A DNA stretch of 7,860 nt, from the IMG/VR virus record IMGVR_UViG_3300029219_000192; one strand, written 5' to 3'. Within the stretch, counting starts at the first letter, position 1. Each line of letters starts with the position of its first letter. A program made the translations under genes and the position numbers. Of this stretch, positions 1 through 7,860 are shown in pieces. Under the pieces are notes generated by a model. It saw only the letters and a list, made by a program, of their open reading frames with translations. It ran no database searches and was not told the origin of the DNA. The DNA is from a virus (lineage: Duplodnaviria; Heunggongvirae; Uroviricota; Caudoviricetes).

Positions 1-77
1 TAAGCAGAGTTTTTGAAATGTAAGGCCTTTGAATAAGACAAAAGGCTGCCTCATCGCTAACTTTGCAACAGTGCCCT
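1..77. repeat. Left copy of a perfect 77-bp inverted repeat (partner at 7762-7838); may extend beyond the window edge
   Basis: Bases 1-77 are the exact reverse complement of 7762-7838, checked base by base; first mismatch is at 78 vs 7761. The copy runs to window position 1, so its outer limit is unknown. Confidence 0.95.
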
Positions 78-225
78 TTAAAGCACGTTTTAATCCAGGT
101 CGGCCTGTCCTTATTCCGCTTAATTTATCTTCAAATATTTGTTCACATCCTGCACAAACAAGAGCGTTTCGTTGCAGGTCTGTATTCTGGTCATTTGTTG
201 ATACCCTTACATAGCCAATCAGCAC
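76..225 (-). pseudogene. pin: Serine DNA invertase (Pin/Gin/Hin family), N-terminal 50-codon fragment fused to the inverted-repeat sequence
   Basis: Minus-strand translation from GTG at 223-225, verified codon by codon: MLIGYVRVSTNDQNTDLQRNALVCAGCEQIFEDKLSGIRTGRPGLKRALK. This matches the invertase N-terminus including the catalytic-serine motif VRVSTNDQ; GGGAG lies 7 nt upstream of the start. Homology stops at codon 50 (76-78), exactly at the repeat boundary; the frame then reads GTVAKLAMRQPFVLFKGLTFQKLCL with no stop before the window edge. The catalytic-domain remainder and C-terminal DNA-binding domain are absent. Confidence 0.85.
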
Positions 226-279
226 GCTGAATCTCCCGTCCAAAAGCACAAATCATGCCATGCAGGCCAGAAACCGCCA

Positions 280-305
280 TTATCTAAAACCTCGGTTTAC
301 AGGAA
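280..305. other. pix/gix-like 26-bp crossover site for a Gin-family invertase
   Basis: TTATCTAAAACC-TC-GGTTTACAGGAA at 280-305 fits the gix/hix-type site (two 12-bp inverted half-sites around a 2-bp core; consensus recalled from memory, about one mismatch). It lies between the pin fragment and the tail-fibre cassette, the expected position. No second convincing copy was found in the window. Confidence 0.7.
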
Positions 306-329
306 ACGGTAAACAGGGCCAGGAACGCC

Positions 330-1292
330 GTGCAAAAGAATGGCGATACCTTGTCCGGTGGGCTTACTTTTGAAAACGACTCAATCCTTGCCTGGATTAG
401 AAATACTGACTGGGCAAAGATTGGTTTTAAAAATAATGCCGACAGCGACACTGATTCATACATGTGGTTTGAAACAGGCGACAACGGCAATGAATATTTC
501 AAATGGAGAAGCCGCCAGAGCACCACAACAAAAGACCTGATGACTCTTAAATGGGATGCTTTGTCTGTCCTTGTTAAAGCCCTTTTCAGCAGTGAAGTAA
601 AAATATCGACAGTCAATGCACTGAGGATATTTAATTCATCTTTTGGTGCTATTTTTCGTCGTTCTGAAGAATGCCTGCATATCATCCCTACACGAGAGAA
701 TGAGGGAGAAAATGGTGATATAGGGCCACTACGCCCCTTTACGCTTAATCTCAGAACTGGTCGGATAAGCATGGGGCATGGTCTTGATGTTACAGGGGAT
801 ATATTTGCAAACCGTTTTGCAATTAACAGTAGTACCGGCATGTGGATTCATATGCGTGACCAGAATGTTATTTTGGGACGCAATGCGGTATCCACCGATG
901 GTGCGCAGGCATTACTTCGTCAGGACCACGCTGATCGCAAATTTATGATTGGTGGACTGGGGAATAAGCAATTTGGCATCTACATGATTAATAACTCAAG
1001 GACAGCCAATGGCACCGATGGTCAGGCGTACATGGACAACAATGGCAACTGGCTTTGCGGTGCGCAAGTTATTCCCGGCAATTATGGTAATTTTGACTCA
1101 CGTTATGTGAGAGATGTCCGACTTGGTACACGTGTTGTTCAGACTATGCAAAAAGGCGTGATGTATGAGAAATCAGGTCATGCAATTACGGGGCTTGGCA
1201 TTATCGGTGCAGTTGATGGCGATGATCCGGCAGTATTCAGACCAATACAAAAATACATCAATGGCACATGGTATAACGTCGTACAGGTGTAA
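330..1292 (+). CDS. Side tail fibre protein, C-terminal variable (receptor-binding) cassette; lacks the constant N-terminal part
   Basis: 320-aa ORF from a GTG. The N-terminal region (QKNGDTLSGGLTFENDSILAWIRNTDWAKIGFKNN...YMWFETGDNGNEYFKWR) is the conserved segment found just after the crossover site in Stf-type fibres. The frame is open from 288, just past a TAA at 285-287 inside the pin-proximal pix half-site. It is followed 3 nt later by tfa. No constant tail-fibre region lies upstream. Confidence 0.8.
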   Translation: MQKNGDTLSGGLTFENDSILAWIRNTDWAKIGFKNNADSDTDSYMWFETGDNGNEYFKWRSRQSTTTKDLMTLKWDALSVLVKALFSSEVKISTVNALRIFNSSFGAIFRRSEECLHIIPTRENEGENGDIGPLRPFTLNLRTGRISMGHGLDVTGDIFANRFAINSSTGMWIHMRDQNVILGRNAVSTDGAQALLRQDHADRKFMIGGLGNKQFGIYMINNSRTANGTDGQAYMDNNGNWLCGAQVIPGNYGNFDSRYVRDVRLGTRVVQTMQKGVMYEKSGHAITGLGIIGAVDGDDPAVFRPIQKYINGTWYNVVQV

Positions 1293-1295
1293 TTT

Positions 1296-1823
1296 ATGCA
1301 GCATTTAAAAAATATTAAGTCTGGAAATCCAAAAACAAAAGAACAATATCAGCTAACAAAGAATTTTGATGTTATCTGGTTATGGTCCGAAGACGGAAAA
1401 AACTGGTATGAGGAAGTGAAAAACTTTCAGCCAGACACAATAAAGATTGTTTACGATGCAAATAATATTATTGTCGCCATCACCAAAGATGCCTCCACGC
1501 TTAACCCTGAAGGTTATAGCGTCGTTGAGGTTCCAGATATTACAGCCAACCGCTGCGCTGATGATTCCAGTAAGTGGATGTTTAGGGACGGAGCTGTGGT
1601 TAAACGGATTTATACGGCAGACGAGCAACAACAACAGGCCGAATCACAAAAGGCCGCATTGCTTTCCGAAGCTGAATCAGTCATCCAACCGCTGGAACGC
1701 GCTGTCAGGCTGAATATGGCAACAGACGAGGAACGCACACGACTGGAAGCATGGGAACGCTACAGTGTTCTGGTCAGCCGTGTGGATACGGCAAATCCTG
1801 AATGGCCACAAAAACCAGAGTAA
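1296..1823 (+). CDS. tfa: Tail fibre assembly protein (lambda Tfa family)
   Basis: 175-aa ORF starting 3 nt after the tail-fibre stop. The C-terminal region ([34 protein letters not shown]) closely resembles the lambda Tfa C-terminus (EAW..Y.VL..RVDT...EWP). Confidence 0.85.
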
Positions 1824-1826
1824 AAA

Positions 1827-2258
1827 TTAAGGCCCGATACCGGGCAAAACATCCGTCAACAGTTCATCAATTTCTGTCGGGCCGAAGCCTGTCAGGGAGA
1901 CATCAAAATCAGCATTGATTAGGTCCGACAGCTCCATCCGCAACAGATCTTCATCCCAGCCAGCATTCATCGGTAGGCGATTATCTGCCAGGCGGTACGC
2001 CTTTTTCTGCTCATCCGTCAGGCCAGACAGAACAATGACCGGAACAGAATCCATTTTGAGCATTTCAGCCGCCATAACACGACCGTGACCCGCAATAATT
2101 TCGCCCTTTTCGTCAATCAGCACCGGATTAGTCCAGCCGAATTGCTTAATACTTTCTACCAGTTGTGCCACCTGCTCAGTACTGTGCGTCCTGGCGTTGT
2201 GCGCATACGGTGACAATTCTTGTAATGGGCGATAGACTATCTTTAATTTCTCGCTCAT
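1827..2258 (-). CDS. ParB-like nuclease-domain protein (ynaK-like by position next to trkG)
   Basis: 143-aa ORF with an AAGG RBS. The N-terminal region (PLQELSPYAHNARTHSTEQVAQLVESIKQFGWTNPVLI) resembles ParB/sulfiredoxin-type domains. It sits directly downstream of trkG, as ynaK does in the Rac prophage. Its stop codon is 3 nt from the convergent tfa stop. Confidence 0.6.
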   Translation of the reverse strand: MSEKLKIVYRPLQELSPYAHNARTHSTEQVAQLVESIKQFGWTNPVLIDEKGEIIAGHGRVMAAEMLKMDSVPVIVLSGLTDEQKKAYRLADNRLPMNAGWDEDLLRMELSDLINADFDVSLTGFGPTEIDELLTDVLPGIGP

Positions 2259-2395
2259 ACAGCCTTGCTTTATGAATAAAACGCACCCCAGCAGCCAGTG
2301 CTACTGGGGGCGGAGGTGTTGCTGGTAAAGTTAGGTATTGGATCAATGAGTGAGTCAATATAATATTAAACTCACAATTATAAATCAGCCATATA

Positions 2396-3853
2396 TTAGG
2401 AGCGCCAAAAAAAACCTGAAAACAATATAATAACAGGATAAATTTCAAGGCGACCAAGAATCATAGCTATGCACATTAAATATTTTGCAATGTCATTAAG
2501 CACTCCGAATGACGATGCAGTAGCCCCAAAACCTAATCCCATATTATTAATACATGCAGCCACTGTTGCAAATGATGTAAGAAAATCATATCCCATACCA
2601 TTTAACACCAGTATAAAAAACACCGTGAAGAGAGTATAAAGAAAAAAGAAACTCCATACAGACCTCATTACACGATCTGTAACTATCTTCCCTCCTACAT
2701 TTACACTCAACAACGCTCTGGGATGAGAAAGCTGATTTATCTCGTGTTTGCTTTGTTTGAAAAGTATAAGAAATCGAAGTGACTTAATTCCACCACAAGT
2801 TGAACCTATACATCCCCCAAAGAAACTTGACGACAGCAAAAACACTATCGTGTGCGTGGGCCAGTTTGCATAATCCTGCGTAGCTAAACCATTATCAGTG
2901 AGCATGGAGCTGGCAAGAAAAAACGAATGAATAAAACTTCCATGCAAGTCATACATACCTATATGCCAGACCTGGAAAGAGGTAACAATGATCACCCCTA
3001 AGGCTATTAACAGAAAGAAACGAAGTTCAATATCTCTGATTAAAGGTTTTATCGTTTTCCTGCTAATAACAATATACCAAAGAGTGAAGTTGAAAGCCGA
3101 TAGCAGGGAAAAAGAACCAGCCACCAGCTCAACCAAATAGTTATTAAAATATCCGATACTCTCGCTATGAGTTGAGAAACCACCAAGCGAAACTGTGGAA
3201 ATCCCGTGACAAATAGCATCAAACAAAGGCATTCCTGCAAGTCTATAACAGACAATACAAGCAATACCTAATAAAGAATAAGTTATCCACAGTGTCCGTG
3301 ACGTATCGGCCAGGCGGGGAGTGAGTTTGTCATCCTTAAATGGCCCCGGCATTTCTGACTGATAAAGCTTTGTACCACCAATACCCAATAATGGCAATAC
3401 AGCAACCGCCAGAACAATAACTCCTAAACCACCTATAAAATTTAACTGTGACCGATAGTACAAATATGCCCGAGGTAATGAACTAACATCATCAATTACA
3501 GTTGCTCCTGTTGTTGTTATTCCAGAAACCCCTTCAAACAGAGCATCAATGAACGTTAAATTAAGTTCTGAGTCAATCCATAAAGGGAATGCACTAATAA
3601 CAGAAAACAAAATCCAAAACATTACAATTATAATAAACCCATCACGGGTACGTAATTGAATGCCAGATTTCTTAGTTGTATACCACGCTCCGCCACCAAT
3701 GCAAAAAAATATAACGAAAGTTATAAAGAAAACGAACAGGCTTTTTTCTTTATAAAACAATGCTACAACCATTGGTGGCAACATTGAAAGACTATAGAGC
3801 CAAACCAGGAACCCACACATATGAGTAACAACTCTTACATGAGATGTATTCAT
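2396..3853 (-). CDS. trkG: Trk-system potassium uptake protein, TrkH/TrkG family membrane subunit (prophage-borne)
   Basis: Long, very hydrophobic ORF with repeated glycine-rich pore-loop-like segments (ITTTGATV, FIGGLGVIVL, STVSLGGFSTH, FGGCIGSTCGGIK). It is strikingly AT-rich compared with its neighbours and lies beside Rz/Rz1, as in Rac. The start is taken as the ATG at 3851-3853 (MNTSHVRV..., 485 aa); the ORF-track start at 3871 is a TTG. Confidence 0.85.
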   Translation of the reverse strand: MNTSHVRVVTHMCGFLVWLYSLSMLPPMVVALFYKEKSLFVFFITFVIFFCIGGGAWYTTKKSGIQLRTRDGFIIIVMFWILFSVISAFPLWIDSELNLTFIDALFEGVSGITTTGATVIDDVSSLPRAYLYYRSQLNFIGGLGVIVLAVAVLPLLGIGGTKLYQSEMPGPFKDDKLTPRLADTSRTLWITYSLLGIACIVCYRLAGMPLFDAICHGISTVSLGGFSTHSESIGYFNNYLVELVAGSFSLLSAFNFTLWYIVISRKTIKPLIRDIELRFFLLIALGVIIVTSFQVWHIGMYDLHGSFIHSFFLASSMLTDNGLATQDYANWPTHTIVFLLSSSFFGGCIGSTCGGIKSLRFLILFKQSKHEINQLSHPRALLSVNVGGKIVTDRVMRSVWSFFFLYTLFTVFFILVLNGMGYDFLTSFATVAACINNMGLGFGATASSFGVLNDIAKYLMCIAMILGRLEIYPVIILFSGFFWRS

Positions 3854-3990
3854 ATCTAAATATTCTTTCAATTATAACCACCTTGCTGCAATATTATGAT
3901 TATACTGTATAAAATTTAACTCCTCTTAGATCTTACTTCACTGTTCCTTATGAAACAATCATCAAAATGAATCATATTGTAGTTAAGATT

Positions 3991-4455
3991 TTACTTTAAA
4001 CACTGCTCGGTTATGTATTGCTGAGCACCTTCAAGTTGGGCCTGCATCATTACCAGTCGTTCCCGGAGGGTGAAATAATCCCGTTCAGCGGTGTCTGCCA
4101 GTCGGGGGGAGGCTGCATTATCCACGCCGGAGGCGGTGGTGGCTTCACGCACTGACTGACAGACTGCTTTGATGTGCAACCGACGACGACCAGCGGCAAC
4201 ATCATCACGCAGAGCATCATTTTCAGCTTTCGCATCAGCTAACTCCTTCGTGTATTTTGCATCGAGCGCAGCAACATCACGCTGACGCATCTGCATGTCA
4301 GTAATTGCCGCGTTCGCCAGCTTCAGTTCTCTGGCATTTTTGTCGCGCTGGGCTTTGTAGGTAATGGCGTTATCACGGTAATGATTAACAGCCCATGACA
4401 GGCAGACGATGATGCAGATAACCAGAGCGGAGATAATCGCGGTTACCCTGCTCAT
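3991..4455 (-). CDS. Rz: Rz i-spanin (inner-membrane lysis protein)
   Basis: Near-identical to lambda Rz along its length ([68 protein letters not shown]...). The start is taken as the ATG at 4453-4455, which overlaps the upstream endolysin-remnant stop as ATGA; the track start at 4467 is a GTG. Confidence 0.9.
4050..4235 (-). CDS. Rz1: Rz1 o-spanin (outer-membrane lipoprotein), embedded in Rz in the +1 frame
   Basis: 61-aa ORF wholly inside Rz. It has a lipoprotein signal with lipobox LVVVGC and a proline-rich region ([24 protein letters not shown]), matching lambda Rz1. Confidence 0.85.
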
Positions 4456-4676
4456 TGTTGCCCCCACAAACAGACCTCACGCTCAATCTCACGACGAGTC
4501 ATCAGGCCTTTCCATTGCTTACCGCCAGCGTATGCCCAGCGACGTAGCTGGTCACATGCGCCCTTGATATCGCCCTGGTTTATTTTGCGAAGAAGAGTAG
4601 ATGTTCTGAAATTGCCTGCGCCCACGTTATAGACGAACGAGTAAAGAGCGCCGCGCGTTGTTTCCGGTAGGTGCGA
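4452..4676 (-). pseudogene. Phage endolysin (lysozyme, R21/RrrD-like) 3' remnant: about the last 70 codons only
   Basis: Minus-strand frame ending at the TGA that overlaps the Rz start: ...[71 protein letters not shown]. This matches the C-terminus of lambdoid lysozymes (from memory). The frame is closed upstream by a TGA (plus 4677-4679) with no start codon; the N-terminal catalytic part and the holin gene are absent. Confidence 0.6.
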
Positions 4677-4794
4677 TCACTTTCGTCTACTCCGTTACAA
4701 AGCGAGGCTGGGTATTTCCCGGCCTTTCTGTTATCAGAAATCCCCTGAAAGCACAGCGGCTGGCTGAGGAGATAAATAATAAACGGGGGGCTGT

Positions 4795-4986
4795 ATGCAC
4801 AAAGCATCTCCTGTTGAGTTAAGAACGTGTATCGAGATGGCACATAGCCTCGCTCAAATTGGAGTCAGGTTTGTGCCAATACCAGTAGAAACAGACGAAG
4901 AATTTCATACGTTAGCCGCATCCCTTTCACAAAAGCTGGAAATGATGGTGGCGAAAGCAGAAGCAGATGAGAGAGACCAGGTATGA
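4795..4986 (+). CDS. Small early-region protein, YdfA-like (63 aa)
   Basis: ATG ORF with a G-rich RBS, MHKASPVELRTCIEMAHSLAQIGVRFVPIPVETDEEFHTLAASLSQKLEMMVAKAEADERDQV. Its stop overlaps the next start as ATGA. It resembles, from memory, the first gene of the ydfA-ydfB-ydfC trio of the Qin prophage. Confidence 0.5.
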   Translation: MHKASPVELRTCIEMAHSLAQIGVRFVPIPVETDEEFHTLAASLSQKLEMMVAKAEADERDQV

Positions 4987-5066
4987 CAACCACTGAATGC
5001 ATTTTTCTGGCAGCGGGCTTCATATTCTGTGTGCTTATGCTTGCCGACATGGGGCTTGTTCAATGA
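4983..5066 (+). CDS. Small hydrophobic peptide, YdfB-like (27 aa)
   Basis: MTTTECIFLAAGFIFCVLMLADMGLVQ, a single predicted transmembrane helix. ATGA overlaps with both neighbours suggest translational coupling. The alternative reading is that the next gene starts at 4997 in another frame (93-aa track ORF). Confidence 0.35.
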   Translation: MTTTECIFLAAGFIFCVLMLADMGLVQ

Positions 5067-5278
5067 CACCTCAGCAAGAAAACGCCCTTCGCAGCATTGC
5101 CCGTCAGGCTAATTCTGAAATCAAAAAAGCCAGACAGCAGTTTCCGGATAAAAACGTCGATGACATTTGCCGTAGCGTACTGAAGAAGCACCGCGAAACG
5201 GTAACGCTGATGGGATTCACACCGACTCATTTAAGCCTGGCAATCGGCATGTTAAACGGCGTCTTTAAGGAACGATGA
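5063..5278 (+). CDS. Small early-region protein, YdfC-like (71 aa)
   Basis: MTPQQENALRSIARQANSEIKKARQQFPDKNVDDICRSVLKKHRETVTLMGFTPTHLSLAIGMLNGVFKER. The start overlaps the upstream stop as ATGA. Same frame as the 93-aa track ORF (4997-5278), but the coupled start at 5063 is preferred. Confidence 0.5.
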   Translation: MTPQQENALRSIARQANSEIKKARQQFPDKNVDDICRSVLKKHRETVTLMGFTPTHLSLAIGMLNGVFKER

Positions 5279-5299
5279 ACATGAAAAGCAAAATTATCA

Positions 5300-5324
5300 G
5301 GGAGCTACAGGCTCCTTTTTTATT
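5300..5324 (+). terminator. Short GC hairpin plus T-tract (weak intrinsic terminator or small-RNA 3' end)
   Basis: GGAGC (5301-5305) pairs with GCTCC (5311-5315) around a 5-nt loop, followed by TTTTTTATT. The stem is only 5 bp, so confidence is low. Confidence 0.25.
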
Positions 5325-5376
5325 GCTCGCATTTACCCCCAAGCGTATTAACCAACAATTCAGGGATTAATGGAAG

Positions 5377-5598
5377 ATGGCAGACATCATTGATTCAGCA
5401 TCAGAAATTGAAGAATTACAGCGCAACACAGCAATAAAAATGCGCCGCCTGAACCACCAGGCTGTATCTGCCACTCATTGTTGTGAGTGTGGCGATCCCA
5501 TAGATGAGCTAAGACGCCTGGCCGTTCAGGGTTGTCGGACTTGTGCAAGTTGCCAGGAAGATCTGGAGCTTATCAGTAAACAGAGAGGTTCGAAGTGA
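5377..5598 (+). CDS. DksA/TraR-family C4-type zinc-finger protein (phage TraR-like)
   Basis: 73-aa ORF with four-cysteine motif ...HCCECGDPIDELRRLAVQGCRTCASCQ... Size and motif are typical of TraR-like proteins in lambdoid early regions. Confidence 0.8.
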   Translation: MADIIDSASEIEELQRNTAIKMRRLNHQAVSATHCCECGDPIDELRRLAVQGCRTCASCQEDLELISKQRGSK

Positions 5599-5846
5599 GC
5601 GTAATTCACTCTCAGGCACTGCGTGAAGCGGCAGAGCAGGCAATGCCTGACAACTGGGGATTTGACGCGGACCTTTTCCATGAGCTGGTAACACCATCGA
5701 TTGTGCTGACACTGCTGGATGAACGGGAAAGAAACCAGCAATACATCAAACGCCGCGACCAGGAGAACGAGGATATTGCGCTAACGGTGGGGAAACTGCG
5801 TGTTGAGCTGGAGACAGCAAAAATCAAAACTCAACGAGCAGCGTGA
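5595..5846 (+). CDS. Ead/Ea22-like early protein, N-terminal part; ORF closed by TGA but coding-like frame continues to 6008
   Basis: GTG start overlapping the TraR-like stop (GTGA). MSVIHSQALREAAEQAMPDNWGFDADLFHELVTPSIVLTLLDERERNQQYIKRRDQENEDIALTVGKLRVELETAKIKTQRAA resembles Ea22-family N-termini (from memory). After the TGA at 5844-5846 the same frame stays open for 53 more codons. Confidence 0.45.
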   Translation: MSVIHSQALREAAEQAMPDNWGFDADLFHELVTPSIVLTLLDERERNQQYIKRRDQENEDIALTVGKLRVELETAKIKTQRAA

Positions 5847-6144
5847 GTAGAAGGTGTTATCTCGGATGGAAGTAAGCGTATTGCTGAACTGGAGGCCTGG
5901 GTTGAATACACAAGAGCTGCATACGTAAGAGCAAAAGACAAGGGAGATTTGATCAGAGTTATTACCCGCCAACCAACGGGATTTTACGCTTACGTACCAT
6001 GTAATTAGGAATCCTTGAAGTGGCAGCCTAACTGCGGATACACTGAAATGGCGATTTGGTAACATGTTTCGCACAAGGCTGTTACTACACTTAGAGATAA
6101 TCAGCCATGATTAAACGCTTTGTAAAAAGTAAAAGGAAATTACA

Positions 6145-6759
6145 ATGAAAAAATCAATACTAATTTTAGGGCTTACGTTAATTGTCTCATCTCAAATACC
6201 ATCGGCAATGGCAAAAAATGAATCAAAACTATGGGTTGTTGTTGATCGAACGGAAAGACATACCTGCCCTTCAAGTAAATGTGGAGTGGCTGGGAAACTA
6301 TTTTTCAGGGAAGGCGTAGATTTTCTAGAAAAAAAAGGTGAATGGGTTCGTATAACTGAGCCATATTCAGCCTCATGTGTTGGAGGGGAAAGCGAATATA
6401 TTAAAGAAGGTAATAAATCCTGCACAAGAAAAAATGGAATCGTTAATGGCAAGTTTTCAGAATGGGTTAAACTTAGTGATCTTAGCAGTGAAAGGCCATC
6501 AGATCCTGCTGAAAATGCGAGCGGAGATGATACTTTAATCAAAGGATCTGATGACTACCGTATATACAAAAAAGAGTTTTCTTCGGCAGCTAGGAAGTTA
6601 ATAAATGAAGGGGTCTGCACGGAAAGCGATTTTAAGGAAATCGGAGGGTGGATGGCATCAAGCAATAAGGGTGAAAACATCTATTTCACATATTGCGGAG
6701 GAATGACGTTGTCGAACAGAATATACCTAGATGTTAAAAGTGGAAAGACTTTTAGATAA
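6145..6759 (+). CDS. Secreted (Sec signal peptide) cysteine-containing protein of unknown function; AT-rich cargo gene
   Basis: 204-aa ORF with an AAGGAA RBS. N-terminal MKKSILILGLTLIVSSQIPSAMA-KNE is a typical signal peptide with an AxA cleavage site and no lipobox. Several Cys lie in the mature part. Composition is visibly AT-rich compared with flanking genes, and a strong terminator follows. Confidence 0.7.
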   Translation: MKKSILILGLTLIVSSQIPSAMAKNESKLWVVVDRTERHTCPSSKCGVAGKLFFREGVDFLEKKGEWVRITEPYSASCVGGESEYIKEGNKSCTRKNGIVNGKFSEWVKLSDLSSERPSDPAENASGDDTLIKGSDDYRIYKKEFSSAARKLINEGVCTESDFKEIGGWMASSNKGENIYFTYCGGMTLSNRIYLDVKSGKTFR

Positions 6760-6829
6760 TATGATATTACCAATGACAGTATTGATTTAATGCCTCCATA
6801 GAATTATCTCTAGGAAGTAGGTATAAGAA

Positions 6830-6866
6830 AAGCCCGCACAATGAGCTGCTGCGGGCTTTGTGTTAT
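6830..6866 (+). terminator. Rho-independent terminator downstream of the secreted-protein gene
   Basis: AAGCCCGCA (6830-6838) pairs with TGCGGGCTT (6850-6858) around an 11-nt loop, followed by TTTGTGTTATT. Confidence 0.7.
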
Positions 6867-6912
6867 TCGCCATATTTTATGAAGCAAATACGACACTATA
6901 GATAATTAAGCG

Positions 6913-7052
6913 TTGCTGGTTGTCGATTCCTCAATCACTCCTGTTGATGGCTCTCTTCTTGTATGTGCCATTGAAGGGGAATATCGCGTAAAAAGATACC
7001 GGAAGTATCCGCGCCGCCATGATTGTCTTTCTCCTGATGCAGGAAAAGCAGA
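6913..7052 (+). pseudogene. S24 peptidase (LexA/UmuD/cI-type) C-terminal-domain remnant
   Basis: LVVDSSITPVDGSLLVCAIEGEYRVKRY resembles the conserved core of the S24 autoproteolytic domain (compare UmuD LLIVDSAIT...VIAAVDGEFTVKKL). There is a stop codon 6 nt upstream of 6913, no catalytic-Ser region, and the downstream translation is not protein-like. The homologous core is roughly 6913-7000. Confidence 0.4.
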
Positions 7053-7391
7053 ATGGCTAAATCAGCAACAGAGCACAAAGCCGATCAGAGAGCCAAGCAA
7101 GCATCATCCGGTATGCGTAAGCTGGAGCTTGTACTTGATGCTCAGGAAATTGAAATGCTGGAGCGTAACTGTGCCACGCGTCGCTTCAGGCGTGCGCCTT
7201 GCGAGTTTGGTGAGTACATCGCGTTACTGAGCCGCCAGGATGATGCACGTGTGCGCTGGCGTATAAAATCGATCAGCAGAAAACGGTGCGGTAAGTGCGG
7301 CGAGAGAGTTCCTGTTAATTCATGCCCGTGTAATGGTGACTCACAATGCTGGGTGACCAAAGGCTGGCACGAAACAAAATTAATGATATAA
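7053..7391 (+). CDS. Hypothetical protein with C-terminal Cys cluster (putative zinc ribbon)
   Basis: 112-aa ATG ORF with an AGGA RBS. C-terminal C-x2-C-x8-C-x-C-x5-C (RCGKCGERVPVNSCPCNGDSQCW). No family recognised. Confidence 0.6.
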   Translation: MAKSATEHKADQRAKQASSGMRKLELVLDAQEIEMLERNCATRRFRRAPCEFGEYIALLSRQDDARVRWRIKSISRKRCGKCGERVPVNSCPCNGDSQCWVTKGWHETKLMI

Positions 7392-7397
7392 ATCTCT

Positions 7398-7409
7398 GTG
7401 ACATGTCAC
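7398..7409. promoter_or_regulatory. Perfect 12-bp palindrome GTGACATGTCAC between the two module genes (candidate protein-binding site)
   Basis: Exact dyad symmetry at 7398-7409, in the 28-bp gap immediately upstream of the RBS (GGAGG) of the 7420 gene. Confidence 0.3.
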
Positions 7410-7419
7410 GGAGGCGGCA

Positions 7420-7782
7420 ATGAAATTAGACCAGCAATATCTAAAAGATCTACTTATCGCATTCGAAAAAACTCGTGGCCCTGACACGATGCTTAGTGAA
7501 CTAGAGGATAATGGCTTTAATAGATATGACCAAGATTTTATTTTCCATATGCGATTATTATGTGACTACGAATTAATAGTCAGGGTTGATGGAAAACCTG
7601 GGTTCGGTCATATATTGTCCAAAGCGTTAGGGGAAGGTGTTGGATATAGTTGGATCGAAGTACCACTGAGGTTGACAGCAAGAGGGCATGATTTTATTGC
7701 TGACTTACGTCAAAAGGATGTCTGGCAAGCTATAAAAACAAACTTTAAGGATGAGGGAATTAGGGCACTGTTGCAAAGTTAG
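7420..7782 (+). CDS. Hypothetical protein (120 aa), AT-rich; its last 6 codons lie inside the right inverted repeat
   Basis: ATG ORF with a GGAGG RBS 7 nt upstream. Protein-like composition, no recognised motif. Visibly AT-rich. It ends ...EGIRALLQS* with the stop at 7780-7782. Confidence 0.65.
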   Translation: MKLDQQYLKDLLIAFEKTRGPDTMLSELEDNGFNRYDQDFIFHMRLLCDYELIVRVDGKPGFGHILSKALGEGVGYSWIEVPLRLTARGHDFIADLRQKDVWQAIKTNFKDEGIRALLQS

Positions 7783-7838
7783 CGATGAGGCAGCCTTTTG
7801 TCTTATTCAAAGGCCTTACATTTCAAAAACTCTGCTTA
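7762..7838. repeat. Right copy of the perfect 77-bp inverted repeat
   Basis: Exact reverse complement of 1-77. Covers the last 6 codons and stop of the 7420-7782 ORF plus 56 bp downstream. Confidence 0.95.
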
Positions 7839-7860
7839 CCAGGCGCATTTCGCCCAGGGG

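What the first reader, a model, noticed from the sequence alone, without database searches (positions are those of the whole stretch)
1827..3990. AT-rich trkG potassium-transporter cargo gene within the prophage late region
A full-length TrkH/TrkG-family transporter gene is embedded between Rz/Rz1 and a ParB-like gene. Its composition is visibly much more AT-rich than the flanking phage genes, including its AT-rich upstream region (3854-3990). This matches the known Rac trkG arrangement, here in a rearranged context, and is a host-physiology gene carried by the prophage.
Basis: partly seen in the sequence, partly recalled or inferred. Interest (0 to 1): 0.4.

Follow-up and report, generated by a model that had tools for sequence, protein, structure and literature searches.

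The report
Known prophage potassium-transporter gene trkG
This is an intact copy of trkG, the well-known AT-rich potassium-uptake gene that E. coli carries on lambda-like prophages. Here it sits in a badly eroded prophage stub bracketed by two IS26 insertion sequences, so the finding is correct but ordinary.

Summary
Window 2396-3853 (- strand) encodes a 485-aa protein that differs from E. coli K-12 TrkG at 4 residues. It aligns end to end with E. coli TrkH (41% identity) and with the solved Vibrio TrkH structure.

- **Composition:** trkG has 38.0% GC (GC3 32.5%) and its 137-bp upstream region has 25.5%. The adjacent Rz and ParB-like genes have 52.6% and 49.5% (p about 1e-13).
- **Gene order:** Rz/Rz1, trkG, ParB-like is the order in K-12 Rac, in 10 sequenced E. 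coli/Salmonella phages and in 80 of 80 viral contigs examined.
- **Already published:** prophage location, 38% vs 53% GC, partial H-NS repression and Na+-dependent K+ uptake (PMC9898762).

- **Not Rac:** only 2005-4435 matches Rac. Related copies sit at the lambda attachment site next to ybhC.
- **Two deletions:** the prophage collapsed at junctions 1837/1838 and 4669-4685. The first cuts the ParB-like gene to 140 of 263 codons.
- **IS26 on both sides:** inverted IS26 ends lie at 1-75 and 7764-7860.
- **Spread:** the same remnant occurs at 100% identity on large plasmids of Enterobacter, Klebsiella, Citrobacter and E. coli.

Verdict: already known, low interest.

The parts
2396..3853 (-). trkG coding sequence (485 aa from the ATG). 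It encodes the membrane subunit of the Trk K+ uptake system. An in-frame TTG at 3871, preceded by AAGGTGG, would add 6 residues.
   Evidence: ORF. Pfam TrkH 480 bits, full length. TIGR00933 scores 413 against a cut-off of 331. 481/485 identical to K-12 TrkG. Full-length alignment to solved TrkH. P-loop glycines and D121/E231/D327 are present. dN/dS 0.049 against the E. albertii allele.
3854..3990 (-). AT-rich (25.5% GC) region upstream of trkG, presumed to hold its promoter and H-NS target. It forms part of the transferred module.
   Evidence: GC and sequence. Homology with the independent E. albertii trkG locus extends through this region to 4033. Promoter activity and H-NS repression were shown for the K-12 equivalent in PMC9898762. 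The promoter-consensus scan here is not above chance.
2286..2309 (-). GC-rich hairpin followed by a U-rich tail, 87 nt downstream of the trkG stop. It is a likely intrinsic terminator.
   Evidence: Terminator scan. The RNA fold is -25.2 kcal/mol, z -4.06, with 0 of 200 shuffles folding as well.
1827..2258 (-). Truncated ParB/Srx-like gene (the ynaK homologue). It holds residues 1-140 of a 263-aa phage protein. Its last codons and stop come from the deletion junction at 1837/1838.
   Evidence: Pfam ParB_N. 139/142 identical to the N-terminus of the 263-aa protein of phage vB_EcoS-683R6. Homology to trkG phages stops at 1838.
3991..4467 (-). Rz (i-spanin), full length, with Rz1 (o-spanin) embedded at 4050-4235.
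   Evidence: Pfam Phage_lysis 179 bits and Rz1 69.5 bits.
4452..4669 (-). 3' fragment of the phage lysozyme gene (rrrD-like). It ends at the second deletion junction (4669-4685), which fuses the lysis region to the early-left genes DUF1317/DUF1382.
   Evidence: Pfam Phage_lysozyme, profile positions 78-125 only. PGAP pseudogene annotation. Junction coordinates from comparison with KH_005 and the phage.
1..75 (+). Right-end (IRR) 75 bp of an IS26 copy. It truncates a pin-like recombinase gene at 76.
   Evidence: Exact 14-bp IS26 terminal repeat at 62-75. IS26 transposase is annotated immediately to the left in AH04 and S43.
7764..7860 (-). IRR end of a second IS26 copy in the opposite orientation. 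It truncates the DUF2513 gene.
   Evidence: Exact terminal repeat at 7764-7777. A 77-nt perfect inverted repeat pairs it with 1-77. This junction is absent from every record in the plasmid and E. coli collections.

Best explanation
Window 2396-3853 is an intact orthologue of E. coli trkG. The gene encodes the ion-conducting membrane subunit of the Trk K+ uptake system.

It is an AT-rich cargo (moron-type) gene. It occupies a fixed slot in lambdoid phages, between the lysis cassette (S, R, Rz/Rz1) and the ParB-like and terminase genes.

**Shown here:**
- Identity with K-12 TrkG.
- An intact reading frame with conserved selectivity-filter residues.
- Composition distinct from the flanks.
- The same slot in every phage and viral contig examined.
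- Strong purifying selection.

**Taken from published work on the near-identical K-12 gene (PMC9898762):**
- TrkG works with the host-encoded TrkA. Dependence on SapD/TrkE as well is my own background knowledge, not checked in the paper.
- It takes up K+ in a Na+-dependent manner and also conducts Na+.
- Its transcription is partly repressed by the xenogeneic silencer H-NS.

**Inferred:**
- The phage late promoter and the Q antiterminator are deleted in this remnant. Expression must therefore come from the gene's own promoter in the 25.5%-GC region 3854-3990.
- Transcription probably ends at the hairpin at 2286-2309.

The host element is not Rac. It is a lambda-attB-type lambdoid prophage reduced by two internal deletions. 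In this window it is bracketed by two inverted IS26 copies.
For: - **Identity:** 481/485 identical to K-12 TrkG.
- **Family scores:** Pfam TrkH is full length. TIGR00933 is above its cut-off.
- **Alignments:** full length to solved TrkH and to K-12 TrkH at 41%.
- **Key residues:** the four P-loop glycines and D121/E231/D327 are conserved (residues defined).
- **Composition:** GC 38.0%, GC3 32.5%, upstream region 25.5%, flanks about 51%, p 1e-13. ATA, TTA, AGA and GGA codons are enriched relative to trkH.
- **Intact phage order:** S, R, Rz, trkG, ParB(263 aa), two hypotheticals, terS, terL.
- **Synteny:** Rz-homologous DNA upstream and ParB-homologous DNA downstream in 80 of 80 viral contigs.
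- **Prevalence:** present in 1551 of 5426 complete E. coli genomes, 1523 records at 99% identity or more.
- **Selection:** dN/dS 0.049 against the E. albertii allele, which is also 38% GC.
- **Terminator:** hairpin of -25.2 kcal/mol, z -4.06.
- **Catalogue and literature:** PHROG phrog_1916 is a phage-borne TrkG family.
Against: - No expression or transport data exist for this copy.
- It carries four substitutions relative to K-12 (A161T, S330N, L341S, C458Y). S330N lies 3 residues from D327, the residue implicated in Na+ dependence. The same protein (WP_001393986.1) is annotated in all five records inspected.
- Sigma-70 consensus matches in the region are no more frequent than in shuffles (7 found, 6.4 expected). 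The promoter is therefore inferred from K-12 data, not from this sequence.
- No trkG-less 'empty site' with Rz directly next to this ParB allele exists in 5426 E. coli genomes. The insertion event itself is not documented.
- No low-GC donor lineage was found. The closest non-Escherichia homologues, Buttiauxella (68%) and Morganella (62%), have 47-51% GC.
Confidence: 0.93

Rival explanations
1. The gene is a decaying passenger: a silent relic in a dead prophage stub with no current function, intact only because there has not been time to decay.
For: - The surrounding prophage is heavily eroded by two large deletions and IS26 truncations.
- A Shigella flexneri copy of trkG in the same slot is fragmented (L017).
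- One E. coli genome has IS1 inserted in trkG (H26).
- H-NS represses the K-12 gene.
Against: - The frame is intact and all filter residues are conserved.
- dN/dS is 0.049 across a dS of 0.92 to the E. albertii allele.
- The gene is retained in 29% of E. coli genomes at 99% identity or more, even where the flanking phage genes are lost.
- K-12 TrkG is expressed at levels similar to trkH and complements loss of TrkH.
Confidence: 0.06
2. The AT-richness is a by-product of encoding a hydrophobic membrane protein, or of local mutation bias, and is not a sign of foreign origin.
For: The protein is rich in F, I, L and Y, which are encoded by AT-rich codons. GC2 is 39.7%.
Against: - The paralogue trkH encodes the same fold at 53.1% GC with GC3 of 62.6%. 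trkG has GC3 of 32.5%.
- The non-coding upstream region is the most AT-rich part at 25.5%.
- The boundary at the Rz stop is abrupt.
- Buttiauxella and Morganella homologues encode similar proteins at 47-51% GC.
Confidence: 0.02
3. The mobile unit is trkG plus the ParB-like gene together, so the ParB-like gene is part of the cargo and not a resident phage gene.
For: - This ParB allele is found in 1556 E. coli genomes and trkG in 1551.
- All 10 phage records holding this ParB allele also hold trkG.
- No genome places this ParB allele next to Rz without trkG.
Against: - The ParB gene has phage-like composition (49.5% GC).
- ParB-like proteins are a large phage family: the full-length protein matches 15 PHROG families, phrog_620 best.
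- In the intact phage it heads the terminase module.
- The independent E. albertii trkG locus shares only 4033-2392 with the window. That stretch is trkG and its upstream region, with no ParB.
Confidence: 0.12

Closest known systems
E. coli K-12 TrkG (b1363, P23849) in cryptic prophage Rac
   Same: - The protein is 481/485 identical.
- The DNA is 99.3% identical over window 2005-4435.
- Both have the same Rz/Rz1, trkG, ynaK order, the same 38% GC and the same AT-rich upstream region.
   Different: - The rest of the element is unrelated to Rac at the DNA level.
- Rz is complete here but a pseudogene in K-12.
- The ParB-like ORF is 143 aa here against 87 aa for K-12 YnaK.
- Relatives of this element sit at the lambda attB site (ybhC) and not at ttcA.
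- The window copy is flanked by IS26.
E. coli TrkH and Vibrio parahaemolyticus TrkH (PDB 3PJZ, 4J9U)
   Same: Same family and fold-level architecture. The alignment is full length, and the selectivity-filter glycines in all four P-loops are conserved.
   Different: - Only 41% identical.
- It scores below the TrkH equivalog cut-off (453 against 866 bits).
- 38% GC against 53%.
- TrkG is Na+-dependent and conducts Na+, whereas TrkH does neither (PMC9898762).
Lambdoid-phage morons downstream of the lysis cassette (for example lambda bor; comparison from general knowledge)
   Same: A host-physiology gene sits in the late region just after Rz. Its composition is distinct, it has its own upstream regulatory region, and a terminator-like hairpin follows it.
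   Different: Unlike a classic moron, no related phage with an empty site was found. Promoter-consensus evidence in the sequence itself is weak.
trkG-carrying E. coli phages vB_EcoS-683R6, -666R9 and others (ON470595 etc.), and PHROG phrog_1916
   Same: 99% DNA identity across Rz, trkG and ParB (window 4467-1838). The TrkG protein matches phrog_1916 over its whole length.
   Different: Those records keep the holin, lysozyme, full ParB, terminase and head genes. The window has lost them.

Membership tests
TrkH/TrkG family (Trk/Ktr/HKT superfamily K+ transporter membrane subunit) | Full-length match to the family profile above the curated threshold | tested here: met
   PF02386 scores 480 bits (cut-off 27) over profile positions 3-500 of 502. 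TIGR00933 scores 413 bits against a cut-off of 331.
TrkH/TrkG family (Trk/Ktr/HKT superfamily K+ transporter membrane subunit) | Four pore loops, each with the conserved selectivity-filter glycine | tested here: met
   The motifs TTTG, SLGG, TDNG and NMGLG align with the TTTG, AIGG, TTAG and NLGPG motifs of solved VpTrkH.
TrkH/TrkG family (Trk/Ktr/HKT superfamily K+ transporter membrane subunit) | K+ uptake activity that depends on TrkA (and, from my own background knowledge, SapD/TrkE) | not testable with these tools
   Shown for the 99%-identical K-12 protein in PMC9898762, not for this allele.
TrkG orthologue (as opposed to TrkH) | Near-identity to K-12 TrkG, with the acidic residues D121/E231/D327 that mark Na+-activated members | tested here: met
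   481/485 identical. D121, E231 and D327 are present. Their role is described.
TrkH orthologue (NCBIfam NF008020 equivalog) | Score above the equivalog cut-off | tested here: not met
   453 bits against a cut-off of 866. This is the paralogue TrkG, not TrkH.
Phage moron / cargo gene | Located between conserved phage modules and not needed for the phage life cycle | tested here: met
   It lies between Rz/Rz1 and the ParB-like and terminase genes in an intact phage and in 80 of 80 viral contigs.
Phage moron / cargo gene | Composition distinct from neighbouring phage genes | tested here: met
   37.2% GC against 51.4%, p 1e-13. GC3 is 32.5%.
Phage moron / cargo gene | Own promoter and terminator | tested here: inconclusive
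   The terminator-like hairpin is significant. Promoter-consensus matches are not above chance. Promoter activity is known for the K-12 fragment.
Phage moron / cargo gene | Presence/absence polymorphism among otherwise syntenic phages (an empty site) | tested here: not met
   A chimeric Rz-end plus ParB-start query found no joined match in 5426 genomes. Movement of the module on its own is supported only by the E. albertii locus, which shares 4033-2392.
Rac prophage | Homology to Rac beyond the trkG module, and integration at ttcA | tested here: not met
   Only 2005-4435 matches Rac. Related copies lie between the bio/ybhB genes and ybhC.
IS26 translocatable unit / pseudo-compound transposon | Two IS26 copies in direct orientation flanking the segment, with 8-bp target duplications | tested here: not met
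   Both IS26 copies face the segment with their IRR ends, so they are in inverted orientation. The flanking 8-mers CTTTAAAG and GGAATTAG are neither direct nor inverted repeats.

The most novel reading that the evidence does not exclude
The eroded lambda-type prophage stub has been captured by IS26 activity and is now carried at 100% identity on large conjugative plasmids of Enterobacter, Klebsiella, Citrobacter and E. coli, many from wastewater and surface water. The novel reading is that trkG, the only obvious host-physiology gene in the stub, is the selected cargo. It would give non-E. coli hosts an extra Na+-dependent K+ uptake route in such environments. The spread itself is observed. Selection on trkG is speculation.
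Probability: 0.1. Interest if true: 0.35.

Novelty: already known. Interest (0 to 1): 0.13.

Why it matters
For trkG itself nothing changes. It is a textbook example of a horizontally acquired, H-NS-damped, phage-borne host-physiology gene, and this copy fits that picture.

Three points add modest value.
- **Fixed slot:** the trkG slot between Rz and the ParB-like gene is invariant across every phage and viral contig examined. The gene is under strong purifying selection while keeping 38% GC.
- **No donor found:** no low-GC donor lineage is visible among 185,579 species representatives, although that scan reaches only fairly close relatives.
- **Plasmid spread:** a chromosomal prophage stub carrying trkG has moved onto multi-genus plasmids through IS26. 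This may interest people who track accessory cargo on resistance plasmids.

Tried and rejected
- **Empty-site search.** A chimeric query joining the Rz 3' end to the ParB 5' start found no joined match in 5426 E. coli genomes. The insertion boundaries could not be defined that way. They were approximated from the E. albertii locus (4033-2392).
- **Donor search.** The GTDB species-representative scan found only Escherichia (92-99%), Buttiauxella (68%), Morganella (62%) and distant Lentisphaerota/Kiritimatiellia homologues (33-36%). None has low GC. The scan relies on shared exact peptide words, so intermediate relatives could have been missed. The large protein-database searches were not spent on this.
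- **Promoter scan.** Not above chance.
- **Rfam scan of the whole window.** No hits at E up to 0.1.
- **IS26-repeat-like site inside trkG.** A 13/14 match to the IS26 terminal repeat lies at 2559-2572. It is also present in K-12 trkG, so it is a coincidence and not an IS26 scar.
- **Source of the window.** The right-hand DUF2513|IS26 junction is in no record of the plasmid or E. coli collections.
- **Literature.** Searches for plasmid-borne or IS26-linked trkG found nothing relevant. Ly et al. 2004, on the distribution of trkG among isolates, is not held.
Full report
**1. What is in the window**

ORF listing and Pfam scans give the following map.

| Coordinates | Strand | Feature |
|---|---|---|
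| 1-75 | + | IS26 end |
| 76-225 | - | Truncated pin-like recombinase |
| 291-1292 | + | N-terminally incomplete tail-fibre gene |
| 1296-1823 | + | Tail-fibre assembly gene |
| 1827-2258 | - | ParB_N-domain ORF, 143 aa |
| 2396-3853/3871 | - | TrkH-family gene |
| 3991-4467 | - | Rz, with Rz1 embedded at 4050-4235 |
| 4452-4669 | - | 3' fragment of a phage lysozyme gene |
| 4658-7763 | + | Lambda-type early-left genes: DUF1317, DUF1382, TraR/DksA, an ead/Ea22 fragment, a 204-aa ORF, a 112-aa regulator-like ORF, and DUF2513 |
| 7764-7860 | - | Second IS26 end, which truncates DUF2513 |

PGAP annotation of identical DNA in E. coli AH04, 0H25 and S43 agrees with this map.

**2.

- **Identity.** The transporter gene is full length. 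From the ATG at 3853 it encodes 485 aa that differ from K-12 TrkG only by A161T, S330N, L341S and C458Y (7 nucleotide differences).
- **Family scores.** It matches Pfam TrkH over profile positions 3-500 of 502 at 480 bits. It passes the TIGR00933 TrkH-family cut-off (413 against 331). It falls below the TrkH equivalog cut-off (453 against 866), as expected for the paralogue TrkG.
- **Alignments.** It aligns with K-12 TrkH at 41% identity over 482 residues with one gap. It aligns with the crystallised V. parahaemolyticus TrkH over residues 7-485 (E 4e-121).
- **Key residues.** The filter glycines of all four pore loops are conserved. So are D121, E231 and D327, the acidic residues that Tanudjaja et al. 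associate with Na+-activated members.

The composition figures are as follows.

| Region | GC |
|---|---|
| trkG | 38.0% (GC3 32.5%) |
| Upstream non-coding region 3854-3990 | 25.5% |
| Rz | 52.6% |
| ParB-like ORF | 49.5% |
| K-12 trkH | 53.1% (GC3 62.6%) |

- The block 2259-3990 (37.2% GC) differs from its immediate flanks (51.4%) with chi-square 55, p 1e-13.
- The boundary at the Rz stop codon is abrupt: 24% GC in 3900-3999 against 53% in 4000-4099.
- The low third-position and non-coding GC rule out amino-acid composition as the cause.
- The finding's left coordinate (1827) takes in the ParB-like ORF, which is not AT-rich.
- Two other genes in the window (6145-6759 and DUF2513) are also about 38% GC.

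**3. Context: the Rac arrangement, but not Rac**

- **Match to Rac.** Against K-12 Rac only window 2005-4435 matches, at 99.3%. That stretch covers most of ynaK, trkG, and the rzoR/rzpR region.
- **Intact phage order.** In an intact-looking phage (vB_EcoS-683R6) the order is S, R, Rz, trkG, ParB-like (263 aa), two hypothetical genes, terS, terL, portal.
- **Synteny.** Ten phage records share 99% identity across window 4467-1838. All 80 viral contigs retrieved with TrkG have Rz-homologous DNA upstream and ParB-homologous DNA downstream.
- **Deletions.** Comparison with that phage and with the fuller prophage of E. coli KH_005 fixes two deletion junctions.
  - The junction at 1837/1838 removes the ParB C-terminus, the packaging, head and tail genes, and one arm of the tail-fibre cassette.
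  - The junction at 4669-4685 removes the lysozyme N-terminus, the holin, Q, and the replication, immunity and recombination genes.
- **ParB stub.** The window's ParB ORF is residues 1-140 of the 263-aa protein plus three junction-derived codons.
- **Integration site.** In KH_005 and S43 the element lies next to ybhC, which is the lambda attB region and not the Rac site at ttcA.

The map is therefore collinear with a normal lambdoid prophage that has collapsed through deletion. It has not been rearranged by inversion.

**4. IS26 and spread**

- Exact IS26 terminal repeats lie at 62-75 and 7764-7777.
- Positions 1-77 and 7762-7838 form a perfect inverted repeat. Both IS26 copies therefore face the segment with their IRR ends.
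- This is not a translocatable unit. The copies are inverted and there is no target duplication.
- The 7.7-kb segment is 100% identical in about 20 complete E. coli genomes, on chromosomes and on plasmids of 145-454 kb.
- In PLSDB it also appears on plasmids of the following hosts, with varying IS26-associated left ends.
  - Enterobacter kobei (pMCR10_SCLZS19, a conjugative IncFIB/IncFII plasmid)
  - E. roggenkampii
  - Citrobacter freundii
  - Klebsiella michiganensis
  - K. quasipneumoniae
- The right-hand junction in the window is found in no record of either collection.
- I found no paper in the held library that describes this spread.

**5. Population and evolutionary evidence**

- **Prevalence.** trkG is present in 1551 of 5426 complete E. 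coli genomes. 1523 records are 99% identical or more. The linked ParB allele is in 1556 genomes.
- **No empty site.** No genome has this Rz end next to this ParB start without trkG. No empty site documents the insertion.
- **E. albertii allele.** E. albertii carries a diverged allele (84% nt, 92% aa, also 38% GC).
  - It lies in a different prophage remnant near yebZ/yebY, an NleF-like gene and rsmF.
  - Homology to the window there runs only from 4033 to 2392, which delimits the transferable module as trkG plus its upstream region.
  - dN/dS between the two alleles is 0.049 at dS 0.92. This indicates long-term purifying selection with the AT-rich composition maintained.
- **Decay does occur.** A Shigella flexneri copy is fragmented.
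- **No donor identified.** The nearest non-Escherichia homologues are in Buttiauxella (68%, 51% GC) and Morganella (62%, 47-49% GC).

**6. How it most likely works**

Published work on the K-12 gene (PMC9898762) shows the following.
- TrkG uses the host TrkA.
- TrkG mediates Na+-dependent K+ uptake and also takes up Na+.
- It can substitute for TrkH.
- It is partly repressed by H-NS/StpA.
- The same paper cites the 38% vs 53% GC contrast and the Rac location as evidence of phage-mediated acquisition.

For this copy I infer the same function. The late promoter and Q are deleted, so transcription must start in the AT-rich region 3854-3990. The consensus scan is uninformative on this point. Transcription probably ends at the hairpin 2286-2309 (-25.2 kcal/mol, z -4.06). 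An in-frame TTG at 3871, preceded by AAGGTGG, is a possible alternative start.

**7. Verdict**

The finding is accurate, and the gene, its composition and its prophage slot are already known. The non-Rac, deleted, IS26-bracketed and plasmid-disseminated context is a minor addition. Novelty: already known. Interest: low.

Noticed in passing
window 1-75 and 7764-7860: Both window ends are IRR ends of IS26 in inverted orientation, with no target-site duplication. The left junction (75/76) is shared with E. coli AH04 and S43. The right junction (7763/7764) occurs in no record of the plasmid or E. coli collections.
   Followed up: yes
window 76-7763; L028 (Enterobacter kobei pMCR10_SCLZS19), L002: The whole prophage stub is 100% identical on large plasmids of Enterobacter, Klebsiella, Citrobacter and E. 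coli, many from wastewater or surface water. The left ends differ (window 90, 116, 159, 1396, 2152), which suggests successive deletions from that end. In E. coli S43 the stub sits at its chromosomal site next to ybhC, with IS26, a Tn3-family remnant and plasmid parAB genes to its left. That looks like the capture intermediate.
   Followed up: partly
window 6145-6759 (+): A second AT-rich gene (38% GC, GC3 29.8%) encodes a 204-aa protein with an N-terminal signal-peptide-like sequence. It has no Pfam or NCBIfam match and matches only phrog_8310 (unknown function). It may be another cargo gene, in the early-left region.
   Followed up: partly
window 3854-3890 (-): An in-frame TTG at 3871 is preceded by a strong Shine-Dalgarno-like AAGGTGG at good spacing. 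The annotated ATG at 3853 has a weak one. The 491-aa TTG ORF is also open in E. albertii (L008), and the phage record ON470595 annotates the longer form. The true TrkG start may be 6 codons upstream of the K-12 annotation.
   Followed up: no
window 76-1837: The order pin' (-), tail-fibre C-terminal part (+), tfa (+) looks like the alternative arm of an invertible tail-fibre cassette of the Mu G or e14 P type. If so, the 'N-terminally truncated' tail-fibre gene may be a normal promoterless alternative exon. The closest DNA matches (88-95%) are on 45-98 kb plasmids of E. coli and E. albertii.
   Followed up: no
window 2559-2572 (+), inside trkG: A 13/14 match to the IS26 terminal inverted repeat (GCCACTGTTGCAAA). 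It is also present in K-12 trkG, so it is ancestral coding sequence and a coincidence, not an IS26 scar.
   Followed up: yes
L017 (Shigella flexneri SFBU0723) 6001-7423: trkG sits in the same Rz-ParB slot but is broken into several frames or segments. This is a decayed copy, in line with Shigella genome reduction.
   Followed up: no
L001 21568-25229 and L002 18272-21933: In AH04 and on the 0H25 plasmid, the prophage integrase is followed by a Dps-family gene, an ArsR/SmtB regulator, an FAD-dependent oxidoreductase, a methyltransferase and glycogen (glg) genes. E. coli ybhC is not there. The stub is therefore embedded in a larger mobile island of unclear origin.
   Followed up: no
window 6913-7020 (+): A short fragment annotated by PGAP as an incomplete 'DNA repair protein', lying between the 204-aa ORF and the 112-aa regulator-like ORF. 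It is another decay product.
   Followed up: no
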